A stretch of 64,000 bases of DNA, taken from Candidatus Vogelbacteria bacterium RIFOXYD1_FULL_46_19 (GTDB lineage: Bacteria > Patescibacteriota > Minisyncoccia > Phycocordibacterales > XYD1-FULL-46-19). The translations under genes were made by a program, and so were the position numbers. The notes under the pieces are model-generated. The model did no database searches. It was not told the origin of the DNA and saw only the letters and a program-made list of their open reading frames with translations. Positions 3,830 through 62,173 of this stretch are shown here, piece by piece; position 1 is the stretch's first letter; every line of letters begins with the position of its first letter. The stretch lies in NCBI GenBank assembly GCA_001824825.1, contig MHTK01000005.1, forward strand, positions 16,173-80,172, written 5' to 3'.

Positions 3830-4273
3830 ATGCAAACTCACGAAGTAAAACAAAAATCAAAGAGAACTAGACACCAACAAATAGGCCGGGGTGGTAAGCG
3901 TGGTAAAACTTCTGGTCGGGGAACTAAGGGTCAGAAGGCGCGAGCTGGACGTAAACTGCGACCGGAAATTCGCGACCAAATCAAAAAAATCCCTAAGTTG
4001 CGTGGTCGCGGTATTAATACCAATAAACCGGTGGGCTTGCCGGTGGCTACTATTAGTGTGGCTGTGATCGGAGCTAATTTTAAAGACGGCGAAAAAGTAT
4101 CACCGAAAATTTTAGTCGACAAGAAGCTCGTCAGAAAAATCGATGGCCGTGTGCCTTTGGTTAAAGTATTGGGGACTGGCGATATTAAGAGTAAGATTGT
4201 AGCTCGCGGTTTAACTTTCTCGAAGGCCGCCGCTGACAAACTTCAAGTGGCGGGCGGGGTAGTGACTAACTAA
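3830..4273 (+). CDS. rplO: 50S ribosomal protein L15
   Basis: A basic N-terminus (…RGGKRGKTSGRGTKGQKARAG…) typical of L15, in the expected operon position. Confidence 0.85.
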   Translation: MQTHEVKQKSKRTRHQQIGRGGKRGKTSGRGTKGQKARAGRKLRPEIRDQIKKIPKLRGRGINTNKPVGLPVATISVAVIGANFKDGEKVSPKILVDKKLVRKIDGRVPLVKVLGTGDIKSKIVARGLTFSKAAADKLQVAGGVVTN

Positions 4274-11900: not shown

Positions 11901-12278
11901 GGGGATGATCGGCCTTGCCATTGATATGTTAGTTTATTCGTGCGTCCCGAGGGTGCTGGTCGCCTCGTAAATCACACCGGCAAAACTTAAGTGCAAAAAA
12001 CAGCACTGGTGCGGTGGTTTCACCGTACTCTCCAGCTTTCGCTTTAGCGTAATAAGCTGGTGTCGGACGAGCTTTTTCCTAACTGGCTCGCTCCCGGCAT
12101 AATAACCGTTGGGATAGGCAACTGGACTTGTTTCGCCCAGACGCCGAAACTTAGAAACTTTAACGCTTTGGGATTTTGCTCGTTTTATACCTAAAGCGTC
12201 GAGAACTTAAAACCAGCTACGGATGTAGACTCGCTTAAACCATATCTCTGCACGGGGGTTCGATTCCCCCCATCTCCA
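11901..12278 (+). ncRNA. ssrA: tmRNA (ssrA), standard one-piece; CCA not encoded
   Basis: The 5' acceptor GGGGAUG pairs with the 3' CAUCUCC, followed by discriminator A. The T-arm is GGGGG UUCGAUU CCCCC. An internal tag reading frame GCA AAA AAC … GCU UUA GCG UAA UAA (11993-12055) gives the tag AKNSTGAVVSPYSPAFALA with a double stop. The gene sits immediately downstream of smpB and is about 378 nt long. Confidence 0.85.
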
Positions 12279-12285
12279 CAATTAC

Positions 12286-23261: not shown

Positions 23262-23978
23262 ATGGCGGTTTTTAAAATTTGGAAACCGGTCGGCCTCACA
23301 CCGCTCGAGGCTGTTAAAAGACTCCAACAAATAAGGCCAGATTTAGGCGGAGTTAAACTGACTTACGCCGGTCGGTTGGATCCCTTGGCTCTGGGGGTGA
23401 TGATTATTTTGTCGGCCGGTGATATTAAAGACAAAGAGCAGTTTTTAGTCTTACCTAAAACTTATGAAGTTGAGATTTTACTGGGGGCGGCGACTGACAG
23501 CGGCGACGTCTTGGGACTCTCGACTAAGGTGGTGAAGCCTGAAATAGTAAGCCTCGAGCGAGTAGCCATGGCCACTCGGTCCTTAGTCGGCAAGCGACGG
23601 CAAACCGCCCCTCGCTACTCGGCGCCGGGTTTGGATGGGAAAGTTTTTACCCGCTCGGTTGAAATAAAGTCGGTCGCTGTAGGTGAGAGACAGATGATAT
23701 TGGCCGAAGCTTTACTTAAACTGATTGAGGAAAAAATTTTCCTGGTGATGGGGGACTTTCGGCAAGCGGAAATTCTGGCCGGTTGGCAGAGGGAATTGAA
23801 ACGATGGTCCAGCTGTAACTTTCCGGTCATTCCACTTACTATCGAGTGCTCAAGCGGTACTTATGTTCGACTTCTGGCCCGGGAGTTGGGGCGACAACTA
23901 GAATTGCCGGCTTTAGCTCTCCATATTAAAAGAATCAAGGTGGGGGAGATCACCGAGAGTGACTGTGTTAAGGTTTAG
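23262..23978 (+). CDS. truB: tRNA pseudouridine(55) synthase TruB-like
   Basis: YAGRLDPLALGVMIIL matches the catalytic Asp motif GxLDPxAxGVL. It is followed by KTYEVEILLGAATDSGDVLG. Confidence 0.65.
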   Translation: MAVFKIWKPVGLTPLEAVKRLQQIRPDLGGVKLTYAGRLDPLALGVMIILSAGDIKDKEQFLVLPKTYEVEILLGAATDSGDVLGLSTKVVKPEIVSLERVAMATRSLVGKRRQTAPRYSAPGLDGKVFTRSVEIKSVAVGERQMILAEALLKLIEEKIFLVMGDFRQAEILAGWQRELKRWSSCNFPVIPLTIECSSGTYVRLLARELGRQLELPALALHIKRIKVGEITESDCVKV

Positions 23979-24032
23979 ATAAGTCGCTGGCGAATTTGAT
24001 TTTTAATATAATGAGGTTATGCTAGTTTTGTG

Positions 24033-24105
24033 GCGCGTGTAGCTCAGTTGGTAGAGCGCGGAGCTTATACCTCCGTGGTCCCAGGTTCGAGTCCTGGCAC
24101 GCGCA
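24033..24105 (+). tRNA. tRNA with anticodon UAU (reads AUA; Ile); CCA not encoded
   Basis: Cloverleaf: acceptor GCGCGUG/CACGCGC, D-arm GCUC-AGUUGGUA-GAGC, anticodon stem CGGAG/CUCCG with loop CUUAUAC (U33, A37), T-arm CCAGG-UUCGAGU-CCUGG, discriminator A. Confidence 0.8.
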
Positions 24106-24115
24106 CAAAATCTTA

Positions 24116-24150
24116 AGTCCTGAAGTGAAAGCTTCAGGACTTTTGATTTT
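24116..24150 (+). terminator. Intrinsic terminator after tRNA (agtcctgaag tgaaag cttcaggact tttgatttt)
   Basis: A perfect 10-bp stem followed by a U-tract. Confidence 0.65.
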
Positions 24151-24520
24151 GTAGCAGCGTGAGGGACTCGAAAGCCGGAGCCGGTATACAAGATTTTGAG
24201 GTAACGAAAAATGCTTGTCGGCGAGGCGGGGTAGCGACCTTCGTAGCGGAGATTTATCGAAGCAGAAGAGTTGTGACCGAGTCCTGGCACGCGCACCTGA
24301 ACAAAGTGAGGGTGAGAGTGTAGCAAGCCAACTGCTTGGCTTGCGTCAGGACTCGAAAGACTTTTCGTTACCGAGTATCTGATAAAGATAATCGGTCGAA
24401 AAGTACCCGCCCCCGTTGGGGGAGAGTCTTTACCTACGCGCACCCGAACAAAGTGAGGTAAGAGTGCCGCGCATCTTTGTGTTGTCATAGGTGTGATTAT
24501 GCGCACCAGAAAAAATATTC
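24151..24520. repeat. ~370-nt non-coding block composed of direct and inverted copies of the tRNA(UAU) 3' half
   Basis: A direct copy cgagtcctggcacgcgcac (24278-24296) is a 19/19 match to the tRNA at 24087-24105. A partial direct copy acgcgcacc is at 24436-24444. Mirror (reverse-complement) copies gcgtgagggactcgaaag (24157-24174) and gcgtcaggactcgaaag (24343-24359) are present. The block has internal degenerate tandem structure (cgcgcacc[t/c]gaacaaagtgagg[g/t][t/a]gagagtg occurs twice). The antisense 185-aa ORF here is judged spurious. Confidence 0.6.
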
Positions 24521-24591
24521 TTTTTTTTGACGGTAGAGGTATAATAAAATTGGATTGCAAAGTCTAGACAACTATCACAAAGGAGGGTGAT

Positions 24592-24783
24592 ATGTGTCGG
24601 AGCAAGTGGTATGAATCAATATGTCAGGAAACCGAAAATTGCTCTGTTAGACTAAGAGACGATCGGCCATACGCCTGCTGCACTTTATGTCCGGATTGCG
24701 GTCAGCACATTAAGTTTCCGCACTGGGACGATCATTTATGCCACCAGAAGGCCAAGAGAATGGGTTGGACTTATGAAAAATAG
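24592..24783 (+). CDS. Small Cys-rich (zinc-ribbon-like) protein, 63 aa
   Basis: Strong SD (AAAGGAGGGTGAT-ATG). Eight Cys and three His lie in CxxxxxxxxC…CC..C..C…HWDDHLCH patterns. A TATAAT box lies about 40 nt upstream. A terminator follows. Confidence 0.55.
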   Translation: MCRSKWYESICQETENCSVRLRDDRPYACCTLCPDCGQHIKFPHWDDHLCHQKAKRMGWTYEK

Positions 24784-24795
24784 TCGACGTTCATC

Positions 24796-24830
24796 GCCGC
24801 TAGCCTCAAAGCTAGCGGCAGTTTTAATTT
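24796..24830 (+). terminator. Intrinsic terminator (gccgctagc ctcaaa gctagcggc agttttaattt)
   Basis: A perfect 9-bp stem followed by a T-rich tract. Confidence 0.6.
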
Positions 24831-24863
24831 GAAATTTCCGGTTAAAAGCTCTATGATGGGCTA

Positions 24864-25619
24864 ATGACTACAAGATTTTATTTCGGGTTAGCCATTTTAA
24901 TACTTCTTTTGGTTTTTGTGGATCAGGTGGGAGCCCAAACAGCTATCAGTTCCACTGCCACAACCTCGATTATCATTAGCGAACTGAGTGCTACCTCGAG
25001 TGAACCGGGAATCTGGGTCACTATTTCTGGCCAAAATCTAAACCAGGCCGACCTCTTGGTGGGGGACCAGCGCGTACCTCTCGCTAATTTACTGTACACT
25101 GGCGCTCTCGGTGAAGAAGTGAAATATCGAGTACAGGCTTTACCGGCCGGAACCTACCATTTAAAGTTTGTAGGGACAGATGGTGGTCGAAGTAATGAGA
25201 TACCTTTAGTTATTCTACCAGTCGCGGAAGTTAATTTGCCAGCTGAACCTAGCGCCGAGGCCCCTGGCTTTATTGTGTCGGTTGGACTAGCTGATGCCGA
25301 AATTAATTCCACTTGGGCCATGGGGACCGTTCGCGACGTCATCTGGCAGGCGCCAGGTTTAACCCAGCCCTTAGATTTGCTGGTTTGCCATAATAACACC
25401 AAAGGTTGCTGGATCGTCGGATCTAATCTGACTAACGACGGCCAAGCCACCATTGTTCTCCCGACCGGTATTTTAACCGGGCCGTCGTATTTTTTGTTGC
25501 GTCAGTCTAATAATTATTCAACTCGAGAGCGTAGCGAATTGTTTGAAGTGTTACCGTCCCCGCTCTTTTCTGGCTGGGCTAATTTGGCGGCTAGCTTGTT
25601 TGCTTGGTGGCCCCGTTAG
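24864..25619 (+). CDS. Secreted protein with signal peptide, hypothetical
   Basis: The N-terminus is MTTRFYFGLAILILLLVFVDQVGAQ. The rest is an S/T-rich, beta-rich 250-aa sequence with no assignable family. Confidence 0.5.
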   Translation: MTTRFYFGLAILILLLVFVDQVGAQTAISSTATTSIIISELSATSSEPGIWVTISGQNLNQADLLVGDQRVPLANLLYTGALGEEVKYRVQALPAGTYHLKFVGTDGGRSNEIPLVILPVAEVNLPAEPSAEAPGFIVSVGLADAEINSTWAMGTVRDVIWQAPGLTQPLDLLVCHNNTKGCWIVGSNLTNDGQATIVLPTGILTGPSYFLLRQSNNYSTRERSELFEVLPSPLFSGWANLAASLFAWWPR

Positions 25620-56108: not shown

Positions 56109-56113
56109 TCTTG

Positions 56114-56184
56114 TTGCGGGGGCCGGAATCGAACCGGCGTCTGGAGGTTATGAGCCTCCCGAGGTACCTCTCCTCTACCCCGCG
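56114..56184 (-). tRNA. tRNA-Met (CAU), initiator type (C1·A72 mismatch); CCA not encoded
   Basis: Revcomp CGCGGGG-UA-GAGG-AGAGGUA-CCUC-G-GGAGG-CUCAUAA-CCUCC-AGACG-CCGG-UUCGAUU-CCGG-CCCCGCA-A. It resembles E. coli tRNA-fMet (CGCGGGG…GGCCCCCGCAACCA). Confidence 0.8.
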
Positions 56185-56272
56185 TTGCGCATTTAATATA
56201 TCACACAAACGGTTTTGGCGCAATTAGTTAATTGCCAAAAACGCAAAAATATGTATAAATTTAAAGGTAATT

Positions 56273-56345
56273 GTCGGGGTAGCTCAGTTGGTAGAGCACA
56301 GGACTCATAAGCCTGGGGTCGTGGGTTCAATCCCCACCCCCGACA
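56273..56345 (+). tRNA. tRNA-Met (CAU), elongator-type (or Ile-lysidine); CCA not encoded
   Basis: GUCGGGG-UA-GCUC-AGUUGGUA-GAGC-A-CAGGA-CUCAUAA-GCCUG-GGGUC-GUGGG-UUCAAUC-CCCAC-CCCCGAC-A. Confidence 0.8.
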
Positions 56346-56384
56346 CAAGACATTTACATGAGTTTCTGTTAGAATGTCTCACGT

Positions 56385-56459
56385 TTGCGGTCGTAGCTCA
56401 ACTGGTTAGAGCACCCGCCTGTCACGCGGGAGGTTGCCGGTTCAAGTCCGGTCGACCGC
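56385..56459 (+). tRNA. tRNA-Asp (GUC)
   Basis: GCGGUCG-UA-GCUC-AACUGGUUA-GAGC-A-CCCGC-CUGUCAC-GCGGG-AGGUU-GCCGG-UUCAAGU-CCGGU-CGACCGC-G. Confidence 0.85.
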
Positions 56460-56465
56460 GCAAAT

Positions 56466-61889: not shown

Positions 61890-61925
61890 GACAAGTTAAA
61901 AATGGTTTGGACTTTATTAAGTTTA

Positions 61926-61962
61926 GTTTGCTATTCACTGTGCCACCTTAGCTCAGCTGGCC
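61926..61962 (+). repeat. Partial 5' duplicate of tRNA-Thr(CGU) with its leader (gtttgctattcactgt + gccaccttagctcagctgg)
   Basis: It is a 37-nt exact copy of 62044-62080 (leader plus the first 21 nt of the tRNA), placed 118 nt upstream. The intervening sequence contains the hairpin cccgcccgccagcgc…ggcgttgcgggcgag. Confidence 0.6.
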
Positions 61963-62063
61963 CGCCCGCCAGCGCAAGCCTAGAGTTAGCTCAGGCGTTG
62001 CGGGCGAGTAGAGAGTCACTTTATAATAGTTTGAACTTGTTAGGTTTTGTTTGCTATTCACTG

Positions 62064-62136
62064 TGCCACCTTAGCTCAGCTGGTAGAGCACCACTTTCGT
62101 AAAGTGGGGGTCCGGAGTTCGACTCTCCGAGGTGGC
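62064..62136 (+). tRNA. tRNA-Thr (CGU)
   Basis: GCCACCU-UA-GCUC-AGCUGGUA-GAGC-A-CCACU-UUCGUAA-AGUGG-GGGUC-CGGAG-UUCGACU-CUCCG-AGGUGGC-U. Confidence 0.85.
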
Positions 62137-62173
62137 TCAATTTAAGACCTTAATCCTGTGCTATAATCCCCTC

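What the first reader, a model, noticed from the sequence alone, without database searches (positions are those of the whole stretch)
24033..24540. tRNA with anticodon UAU followed by a 400-nt array of direct and inverted fragments of its own 3' half
Two separate points arise here.

First, the tRNA has a clean cloverleaf with anticodon loop CUUAUAC (anticodon UAU). An Ile tRNA with a genomically encoded UAU anticodon is rare in bacteria. Most bacteria encode CAU and use lysidine (TilS). So this genome may decode AUA without TilS. Note that a separate CAU elongator tRNA exists at 56273.

Second, the 400 nt downstream are assembled from pieces of the tRNA's 3' end. There is a 19/19-nt direct copy (cgagtcctggcacgcgcac, 24278-24296) and a further partial direct copy (acgcgcacc, 24436). 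Two reverse-complement copies of the T-arm plus acceptor strand are also present (gcgtgagggactcgaaag, 24157; gcgtcaggactcgaaag, 24343). These are arranged so that long hairpins can form (cgagtcctg … caggactcg).

Direct 3'-end duplicates are the classical attL/attR signature of integrative elements at tRNA genes, but only about 190 nt separate them here. A plausible reading is repeated integration, excision or inversion at this tRNA, leaving a scar array. The alternative is a structured tRNA-derived RNA.
Basis: seen in the sequence. Interest (0 to 1): 0.65.

Follow-up and report, generated by a model that had tools for sequence, protein, structure and literature searches.

The report
Stacked repeat units behind tRNA-Ile(UAU)
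Behind an isoleucine tRNA gene of a groundwater CPR bacterium lie three short non-coding units, each ending in a copy of the tRNA's own 3' end and holding an antisense copy of it; this layout also occurs behind the E. coli tyrT tRNA genes and looks like repeated insertion at one spot of the tRNA gene.

Summary
A tRNA-Ile with anticodon UAU lies at 24033-24105. The 420 nt behind it hold direct and inverted copies of its 3' end, far beyond chance.

The block is ordered, not a random scar field. It consists of three stacked units: E1 24086-24277, E2 24278-24423 and a truncated E3 24424-24497. A fourth, CCA-bearing tRNA end follows at 24498-24509. Each unit has four parts:
- a copy of the tRNA 3' end;
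- a short flank or terminator;
- an antisense copy that folds back on that end;
- a structured spacer.

The copies decay with distance from the gene.

Ten orthologous truB-tRNA-Ile(UAU) loci of Vogelbacteria-like genomes were compared. All carry the UAU tRNA, and nine carry partial tRNA copies. L108, L113 and L114 carry a homologue of E2 with compensatory base changes. L112, nested among them, lacks it precisely. No integrase lies nearby and no Rfam family matches.

The E. coli tyrT-distal 178-bp repeats (RttR) have the same layout.

Best reading: accretion of small insertion units at the T-loop site. This is a new variant of a known kind. Whether the units make a stable RNA, and whether the genome lacks tilS, could not be tested.

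The parts
24033..24105 (+). tRNA-Ile with anticodon UAU (anticodon 24066-24068). CCA is not encoded.
   Evidence: ARAGORN. Rfam RF00005 at 74 bits.
24086..24172 (+). Fold-back 1. The left arm is the tRNA T-loop 3' part, T-stem 3' strand, acceptor 3' strand and 3' flank. The tip is the terminator hairpin. The right arm is the antisense copy.
   Evidence: DNA fold -35.6 kcal/mol, z = -10.6. Inverted repeat I1.
24115..24152 (+). Intrinsic-terminator-like hairpin of 12 pairs followed by TTGATTTTGT, directly after the tRNA.
24157..24174 (+). Antisense copy A'1 (GCGTGAGGGACTCGAAAG) of the tRNA acceptor 3' strand and T-arm.
   Evidence: Sequence. Direct repeat D4.
24175..24277 (+). Structured spacer of unit E1. 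No homologue was found in any fetched locus.
   Evidence: Folds. blastn found nothing.
24278..24296 (+). Displaced tRNA 3' end, copy 1. It is 19/19 identical to 24088-24106 and starts unit E2.
   Evidence: D3.
24297..24321 (+). Flank and tip of the E2 fold-back (CTGAACAAAGTGAGGGTGAGAGTG). GGTGAGAGTG is a degenerate antisense of the acceptor strand.
   Evidence: fifth fold, z = -5.2. Alignment to L108 and L114.
24322..24344 (+). Hairpin H1 (AGCAAGCCAA CTGC TTGGCTTGC), conserved by compensatory changes in L108, L113 and L114.
   Evidence: 4 of its 9 pairs show changes on both sides.
24343..24359 (+). Antisense copy A'2 (GCGTCAGGACTCGAAAG). CAGGACTCGAA is 11/11 complementary to the tRNA's TTCGAGTCCTG.
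   Evidence: I4, D4. 100% identical over 20 nt in L108.
24360..24423 (+). Three-way-junction body of E2. It holds P2 (24360-24405), junction ACCCG, hairpin H3 (CCCCC GTT GGGGG, 24410-24422) and junction A.
   Evidence: The block AAAAGTACCCGCCCCCGTNGGGGGAGAGTC is conserved in L108 and L114.
24424..24443 (+). Displaced tRNA 3' end, copy 2 (GAGTCTTTACCTACGCGCAC). It is partly decayed and starts the truncated unit E3.
   Evidence: D1, D2.
24444..24497 (+). Remnant of unit E3. It has the same left flank as E2 (CCGAACAAAGTGAGGTAAGAGTG), then a hairpin GCGCAT...ATGCGC.
   Evidence: D2; fold.
24498..24529 (+). Oldest tRNA 3' end copy (TATGCGCACCAG, with CCA) followed by an A/T run. Inferred to be the original end of the gene.
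   Evidence: D1, 83%. Analogy with the CCA-bearing distal end in L114.

Best explanation
The block is a stack of three short non-coding units that accumulated at one site, the T-loop, of the tRNA-Ile(UAU) gene.

Anatomy. Each unit begins with a copy of the tRNA's last ~19 nt, so the gene stays intact. It continues with a short flank or terminator, an antisense copy of that same end and flank that makes a long fold-back, and a structured spacer. It stops where the previous tRNA 3' end was pushed downstream. The newest unit, E1, is next to the gene. Older displaced ends decay from 19/19 identity, to partly decayed, to a 12-nt remnant that still carries the CCA of the original gene.

What is shown. 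The anatomy, the gradient of decay, homologous units at the same tRNA in other genomes, an occupied site versus a precise empty site, helix covariation, and the same layout in the E. coli tyrT repeats.

What is inferred. The units enter and leave by recombination within the T-loop-to-3'-end identity segment, as for attL/attR of elements that integrate in tRNA genes. A recombinase encoded elsewhere would act on them, which makes them miniature non-autonomous elements of the CIME type. The fold-back and three-way junction are kept because the process, or an RNA made from the unit, needs them.
For: 1. Repeats are real and ordered. The decay gradient is read.
2. L114 carries a ~220-nt insert between ...GTGCGCCCA and CCAAATTT. 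The gene-proximal end lacks CCA and has a different flank. The distal end keeps the CCA and native flank but has decayed. L112 has the bare CCA-bearing site. Its truB DNA is 89% identical to L114 and 85% to L113, both of which carry the unit. This is what a precise loss between the direct repeats would leave.
3. Window E2 is homologous to the L108, L113 and L114 units. Blocks are 93-100% identical although ftsH DNA is 73% identical. L114 and L108 units are 91% identical, against truB DNA of about 75% (measured L112 vs L108).
4. Seven of 19 predicted pairs have changes on both sides. Single folds of window E2 and L108 give the same three-way junction; the L114 fold did not (z = -1.7).
5. The fold-back of the tRNA 3' end and flank with the antisense copy recurs with three different flank sequences. 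The z-scores are -10.6, -16.4, -10.2, -7.9 and -5.2.
6. Nine of 10 related loci carry partial tRNA-Ile copies that break at the anticodon loop or T-loop. These are the classic integrase sublocations in tRNA genes (own knowledge).
7. Tandem accretion and integrase-less att-flanked remnants are documented (PMC5704250; 10.1101/2020.12.28.424599).
8. E. coli tyrV-distal units have the same layout.
Against: - No integrase, transposase or reverse transcriptase was found among the 40 ORFs scanned in the 64-kb window. None lies next to the tRNA in any related locus.
- No larger autonomous element was found between such repeats anywhere.
- Units of 150-220 bp are too small for an ordinary double-stranded circular intermediate.
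- The antisense arm matches the local flank in each lineage. This suggests it is made or corrected in place rather than carried in.
- E2 and E3 share a flank and could be a local tandem duplication.
- The E2-type unit could be old and vertically inherited under selection rather than mobile.
- Only four sequences support the covariation.
Confidence: 0.5

Rival explanations
1. The units are genes for structured small RNAs of the rtT/RttR kind. Read-through or own transcription yields precursors. tRNA-processing enzymes cut these at the tRNA-like ends (A':A helix plus ...GCACC), releasing RNAs of about 150-190 nt with a host function. The repeats exist because the RNA must end like the tRNA.
For: - Conserved three-way junction with junction sequences GAAAG / ACCNG / A and covarying helices.
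- Blocks more conserved than ftsH or truB coding DNA.
- The + strand folds better than the - strand: z = -8.1 versus -5.4.
- The E. coli unit with the same layout is annotated as small RNA RttR.
Against: - A strong intrinsic terminator stands between the tRNA and E1, and no promoter-like site lies inside the block.
- L112, L101, L103, L104, L106 and L118 lack the unit, so it is dispensable.
- E3 is truncated, and E1 has no homologue anywhere.
- No Rfam family matches, RtT included, even at E <= 10.
Confidence: 0.25
2. There is no mobile element. The block grew in place by replication errors at a highly structured, highly transcribed gene. Template switching at the terminator palindrome copied the tRNA end and flank backwards, giving the antisense arms. 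Slippage or unequal crossing-over between the short direct repeats multiplied the units.
For: - The antisense arms include the local 3' flank, which differs between lineages. That is expected if the arm is copied from the neighbouring DNA.
- E2 and E3 share the same flank.
- The tRNA-Thr(CGU) gene in the window has a tandem partial duplication that includes its leader.
- E. coli units are about 95% identical tandem copies.
Against: - In L114 the proximal flank, terminator and spacer have no source in the local sequence, and the proximal and distal flanks differ.
- The E2-type spacer is shared by genomes with different tRNA types and only 73% ftsH DNA identity.
- Compensatory changes imply selection on structure, not decay of a neutral duplicate.
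Confidence: 0.15
3. The similarities are chance, or an assembly artefact of a repeat-rich region.
For: Several contigs of the same population end inside the block, at window 24067, 24238 and 24417.
Against: - Three independent long contigs from different samples and assemblers are 100% identical over the whole 886-nt intergenic region.
- Repeat counts lie far above shuffles.
- The architecture recurs in other genomes.
Confidence: 0.02

Closest known systems
E. coli tyrT/tyrV-distal 178-bp repeats (RttR/rtT small RNA, tpr)
   Same: The units lie directly behind a tRNA gene. Each ends in a direct copy of the tRNA's last ~19 nt and holds an antisense copy of the T-arm (22 nt, 86% complementary). 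A structured spacer closed by the A':A pairing sits between them. There are about three tandem units.
   Different: - No sequence or Rfam similarity; RF00391 is not hit.
- E. coli units are near-identical tandem copies, whereas the window has two unrelated unit types plus a truncated one.
- Here the antisense arm also covers the 3' flank and terminator, forming one long fold-back with the functional gene end.
- Comparative gain or loss evidence exists here. The origin of the E. coli repeats is, to my knowledge, unresolved.
attL/attR scars, tandem accretion and CIMEs (integrase-less att-flanked remnants) of elements that integrate in tRNA genes
   Same: - Direct repeats of the tRNA 3' end.
- The gene is restored by the incoming copy and the old end is displaced.
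- The newest unit lies next to the gene.
- Occupied and empty sites occur in relatives.
- Break points fall at the T-loop and anticodon loop (PMC5704250; tycheposon preprint).
   Different: - Units are only 150-220 nt with no gene.
- No integrase was found in the window or in any related locus.
- Each unit carries an antisense copy of the target and a conserved three-way junction. Neither is a feature of described att regions.
tRNA-Ile2 with a genomically encoded UAU anticodon (Mycoplasma mobile; Bifidobacterium and Neorickettsia lack tilS)
   Same: A bacterial tRNA-Ile gene with anticodon TAT, and AUA codons in use (PMC3575796).
   Different: This is a different phylum (CPR, Vogelbacteria). 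The state of tilS, the IleRS type and the modification of U34 are unknown here.
Folded single-strand recombination sites (integron attC; the CTX-phage attP hairpin used by XerCD). Recalled from own knowledge and not tested.
   Same: An imperfect inverted repeat rebuilds a double-stranded copy of the target site. Structure is conserved more than sequence. Insertions stack at one site with the newest proximal.
   Different: No IntI or Xer gene is linked. The attC R/L boxes were not looked for. No cassette ORFs are present. This is only a functional analogy.

Membership tests
tRNA-Ile(UAU) decoding without TilS | Canonical cloverleaf with anticodon UAU and no intron | tested here: met
   ARAGORN. 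Rfam 74 bits over the full model. The same holds in 10 related loci.
tRNA-Ile(UAU) decoding without TilS | No tilS gene and no tRNA-Ile2(CAU) in the genome | not testable with these tools
   Only 64 kb is available. No TilS domain appears among the 40 ORFs scanned. The CAU tRNA at 56273 could not be assigned to Met or Ile2.
Integrative-element att scar / CIME at a tRNA gene | Direct repeat of the tRNA 3' end flanking the inserted DNA, with the tRNA gene left intact | tested here: met
   L114 shows the same arrangement.
Integrative-element att scar / CIME at a tRNA gene | Empty and occupied versions of the same site in related genomes | tested here: met
   L112 versus L114 and L113.
Integrative-element att scar / CIME at a tRNA gene | Integrase gene in or next to the element, or recognisable remnants of element genes | tested here: not met
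   No recombinase domain in 40 window ORFs or in the gene lists of the related loci. The units contain no gene.
RtT / RttR RNA (Rfam RF00391) | Match to the family covariance model | tested here: not met
   No match in 23950-24650 at E <= 10, nor in L099, L108 or L114 at E <= 1.
RtT / RttR RNA (Rfam RF00391) | Repeat unit behind a tRNA gene that ends in the tRNA's 3' terminal ~19 nt | tested here: met
   Window. E. coli.
RtT / RttR RNA (Rfam RF00391) | Stable RNA released from the tRNA operon transcript | not testable with these tools
   No expression data are available. A terminator lies between the tRNA and the block.
MITE / palindromic repeat element | Many dispersed copies in the genome, with terminal inverted repeats and short target duplications | tested here: not met
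   No other copy of the unit motifs in the 64-kb window. The duplication is 19 nt of the tRNA end, not a short target-site duplication.
Any curated RNA family | Rfam 15 match | tested here: not met

The most novel reading that the evidence does not exclude
The units are a family of miniature (150-220 nt) structure-dependent mobile elements specialised on the T-loop site of tRNA genes. Each carries a replacement tRNA end with a terminator and an antisense copy. As single-stranded DNA or as RNA it would fold into a hairpin that rebuilds the double-stranded target, plus a three-way junction. A recombinase encoded elsewhere would recognise this structure, in the manner of integron attC sites or the CTX-phage hairpin. 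The E. coli tyrT repeats would then be relics of the same process.
Probability: 0.15. Interest if true: 0.75.

Novelty: new variant of a known kind. Interest (0 to 1): 0.5.

Why it matters
Repeats carrying the tRNA 3' end behind E. coli tyrT have long been known (own knowledge), and their origin is, to my knowledge, unresolved. Here the same layout appears independently in a very distant, tiny-genome lineage. This time there is comparative evidence: gain or precise loss between close relatives, a gradient of decay, covarying helices, and antisense arms that track the local flank. Together these make the origin question testable.

The locus also shows that the tRNA-Ile(UAU) gene of Vogelbacteria is a hotspot of rearrangement. 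Nine of 10 relatives carry fragments. The UAU-type AUA decoder is a stable trait in this CPR clade, which bears on how these organisms read AUA.

Tried and rejected
- Rfam, at gathering thresholds and at permissive E-values, on the window block and on the related loci: only the tRNA matched.
- The genome-contig scan with TruB returned only two spurious archaeal hits.
- The metagenome scan for CACCNGAACAAAGTGAGG gave 85 stretches, about what chance predicts for 17 fixed bases (my estimate). The one tandem case, L039 with a 148-nt period, looked related at first. However, its supposed fold-back is no better than shuffles (z = 0.0) and blastn shares only the 15-mer. I treat it as chance.
- Viral-contig scans for unit motifs and for the tRNA 3' end hit only a terminase gene, another coding stretch and phage tRNA-Tyr genes. 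No phage attP was found.
- The 185-aa ORF on the minus strand across the block (24003-24560) has no Pfam match and overlaps the tRNA antisense. I consider it spurious.
- Hammerhead or other ribozyme readings of the three-way junction were rejected. The junction sequences do not fit and Rfam is silent.
- A retroviral-type primer-binding-site reading of the antisense copy was rejected. The antisense arm includes the 3' flank of the gene and therefore derives from DNA, not from mature tRNA.
- No autonomous element with an integrase between such repeats was found in any of the 10 related loci.

Full report
**Observation**

ARAGORN finds a tRNA-Ile with anticodon tat at 24033-24106. Rfam's tRNA model scores 74 bits over 24033-24105, end to end and without an intron. 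The gene does not encode CCA; the sequence reads ...CACGCGC-A-CAAA.

- The 19/19 direct copy lies at 24278-24296 (D3). A search allowing three mismatches finds only these two sites, against 0.01 expected.
- The partial copy at 24436 belongs to a 23-nt repeat, ACGCGCACCYGAACAAAGTGAGG, at 24289 and 24436 (D2).
- The two antisense copies start at 24157 and 24343.
- A further weak copy, TATGCGCACCAG, lies at 24498 (D1).

The + strand of 24107-24545 folds with z = -8.1 and the - strand with z = -5.4. No Rfam family other than tRNA matches, even at E <= 10.

**Context**

The surroundings are housekeeping genes. In order they are a sigma factor, YggT, FtsH, TruB, the tRNA, the block, a 63-aa Cys-rich ORF, a 251-aa ORF and RecG.

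Forty ORFs across the window were scanned with Pfam. None is an integrase, transposase, reverse transcriptase or TilS.

TruB is 100% identical to a protein of Candidatus Vogelbacteria bacterium RIFOXYD1_FULL_46_19, a member of the CPR. Contigs from several groundwater samples and assemblers are 100% identical over the parts of the truB-to-next-gene spacer they cover, and three of them span all 886 nt. The arrangement is therefore not an assembly artefact. Several short contigs do end inside the block.

**Anatomy**

The block is ordered. Reading from the tRNA T-loop, its parts are as follows.

- E1 (24086-24277) contains:
  - the tRNA 3' end with its flank and a 12-pair terminator;
  - an antisense copy;
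  - a 103-nt spacer.
- E2 (24278-24423) contains:
  - a perfect copy of the tRNA end with a short flank;
  - a degenerate anti-acceptor segment;
  - hairpin H1;
  - the antisense T-arm copy;
  - helix P2 and hairpin H3.
- E3 (24424-24497) starts with a decayed copy of the tRNA end and the same flank as E2. It is then truncated.
- The last remnant (24498-24509) still reads GCGCAC-CA and is followed by an A/T run.

The antisense copy of E1 is not free-standing. It is the right arm of an ~87-nt fold-back. The left arm is the functional gene's T-loop-to-3'-end plus flank, and the tip is the terminator (z = -10.6). E2 has a smaller version of the same fold-back (z = -5.2).

**Relatives**

TruB homologues led to ten orthologous loci, with TruB 43-54% identical to the window's. 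All have tRNA-Ile(UAU) right behind truB. Nine of the ten carry partial copies of that tRNA.

- L099 has the same plan as the window: tRNA, antisense copy, hairpins, then a direct 3'-end copy. It is built from its own, different, tRNA sequence.
- L104 has a 3' half that starts just after the anticodon.
- L101, L103, L106 and L112-L114 have 5' halves upstream, truncated in the anticodon loop. Those of L101, L103 and L106 carry GC-rich hairpins in the D-loop region.
- L108, L113 and L114 carry a clear homologue of window unit E2.

*Conservation of the E2-type unit.* Blocks such as GCGTCAGGACTCGAAAG and AAAAGTACCCGCCCCCGTNGGGGGAGAGTC are 93-100% identical, although ftsH DNA is 73% identical. Hairpin H1 differs at four of nine pairs by changes on both sides. 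In all, 7 of 19 predicted pairs covary among four sequences. Single folds of window E2 and L108 give the same three-way junction, with junction strands GAAAG, ACCNG and A; the L114 fold did not (z = -1.7).

*Gain or loss.* L114 has a ~220-nt insert between ...GTGCGCCCA and CCAAATTT. The end next to the gene lacks CCA and has a new flank and terminator. The displaced end keeps CCA and the native flank but has decayed. L112 has only the CCA-bearing native arrangement. Its truB DNA is 89% identical to L114 and 85% to L113. The bare site is therefore most simply a precise loss between the direct repeats. This is the behaviour expected of attL/attR.

*Fold-backs track the local flank.* The tRNA end and flank pair with the antisense arm in:
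- window E1 (flank ACAAAATCTTAAG);
- L108 (flank CCAAATTTGAT);
- L114 (flank CTTGATAAAAC);
- L099.

The z-scores range from -7.9 to -16.4. The antisense arm therefore derives from gene DNA, not from mature tRNA. It is either selected to pair or is made in place by copying.

**Comparison with known systems**

I fetched the E. coli K-12 tyrT/tyrV region. Four copies of a ~200-nt unit are found, three of them at 178-nt spacing and about 95% identical. Each ends in the last ~19 nt of tRNA-Tyr. Each also holds a 22-nt, 86% complementary antisense copy of the T-arm. The antisense and sense copies close a branched fold. The small RNA RttR is annotated there.

This is the same layout as the window block. 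There is no sequence or Rfam relationship.

Tandem accretion at tRNA genes and integrase-less att-flanked remnants (CIMEs) are documented (PMC5704250). Partial tRNAs as marks of successive integrations are also documented (10.1101/2020.12.28.424599).

tRNA-Ile with a UAU anticodon is known from tilS-less bacteria such as Mycoplasma mobile (PMC3575796). I found no paper in the held library on this for CPR. AUA is 8% of Ile codons in 24 window genes.

**Interpretation**

The best-supported reading is repeated insertion, and occasional precise loss, of small units at the T-loop site of this tRNA gene. Each unit supplies a replacement 3' end. The newest is nearest the gene.

- Shown: the anatomy, the decay gradient, homologous units elsewhere, the occupied and empty sites, the covariation, and the E. 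coli parallel.
- Inferred: that a site-specific recombinase encoded elsewhere does this, and that the conserved structure serves the insertion process.

Two rivals remain open and are not exclusive. One is an rtT-like processed RNA under host selection. The other is growth in place by template switching and unequal crossing-over.

The most novel reading is that the units move as folded single strands that mimic the target. This would explain the antisense copy, the small size and the structural conservation, but it has no direct support.

**Verdict**

The block is a new variant of a known kind, combining the tyrT-type tRNA-distal repeats with att-scar accretion. Interest is moderate. It would rise if mobility or a stable RNA were shown.

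Noticed in passing
window 61924-62064: tRNA-Thr(CGU) at 62065-62137 is preceded by a pseudo 5' half, GCCACCTTAGCTCAGCTGG (19/20 identical to the gene). A 48-nt GC-rich hairpin is inserted in its D-loop and it is truncated in the anticodon loop. The leader gtttgctattcactgt is duplicated too, with a period of 123 nt.
   Followed up: partly
L103 3748-3830; L101 3748-3945; L106 3836-3920; L112 1649-1695; L113 ~3834-3900; L114 1088-1150: 5'-half pseudo-copies of tRNA-Ile(UAU) sit between truB and the real gene, all truncated just after the anticodon. Those of L101, L103 and L106 carry GC-rich hairpins in the D-loop region. The L103 hairpin (CCCGCCCGC...GCGGGCGAG, 48 nt) resembles the one in the window's pseudo-tRNA-Thr. 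Why some 5' halves carry such hairpins is unexplained.
   Followed up: partly
L104 3798-3930 versus L101 3900-4040: Two relatives (truB DNA 83% identical) have swapped tRNA types. L104 has a full 'GCGCGTG' type plus a 3' half of the 'GGGCGTA' type. L101 has a 5' half of the first type plus a full gene of the second. The window's tRNA is 72/73 identical to L104's although ftsH DNA is only 73% identical. This suggests exchange or differential loss of tandem tRNA-Ile genes.
   Followed up: partly
L117 (E. coli K-12 NC_000913.3 1286650-1287650): Each tyrT/tyrV-distal 178-bp repeat, and the tyrT-tyrV spacer, contains a 22-nt antisense copy (86%) of the tRNA-Tyr T-arm in addition to the known direct copy of the 3' end.
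   Followed up: partly
window 24592-25619: A 63-aa Cys-rich ORF (CxxC...CxxC) and a 251-aa ORF without Pfam match lie between the block and recG. In L101 and L104, recG follows the tRNA directly. In the other relatives (L099, L103, L106, L108, L112, L114) different genes follow. The region downstream of this tRNA is therefore variable.
   Followed up: partly
window 24067, 24238, 24417: Short contigs of the same population from different samples end at these three positions: in the anticodon, in the E1 spacer, and in the CCCCCGTTGGGGG hairpin. This could reflect assembler trouble with repeats and palindromes, or population variants at the locus.
   Followed up: no
L039 5630-5913 (Ga0257122_1006590): An unrelated, GC-richer contig ends in a perfect 148-nt tandem repeat. 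It contains the same 18-mer, CACCCGAACAAAGTGAGG, as the window's 147-nt-spaced repeat. There is no tRNA, no significant fold-back and no further similarity, so this is probably chance.
   Followed up: yes
window 11901-12279; 56113-56460: A tmRNA (tag AKNSTGAVVSPYSPAFALA) is present. There are also two CAU tRNAs. The one on the minus strand has a C1-A72 mismatch and looks like the initiator. The one at 56273 could be elongator Met or Ile2(CAU).
   Followed up: no
L108 3743-3818 and L112 1696-1771 versus window 24033-24105, L113 and L114: Whether CCA is encoded depends on whether a unit is fused at the end of the gene. It is encoded in L112, which has no unit, and in L108, which keeps its native 3' end and carries the unit beyond its terminator. 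It is absent where a unit supplies the 3' end (window, L113, L114). The displaced copies keep CC or CCA.
   Followed up: partly
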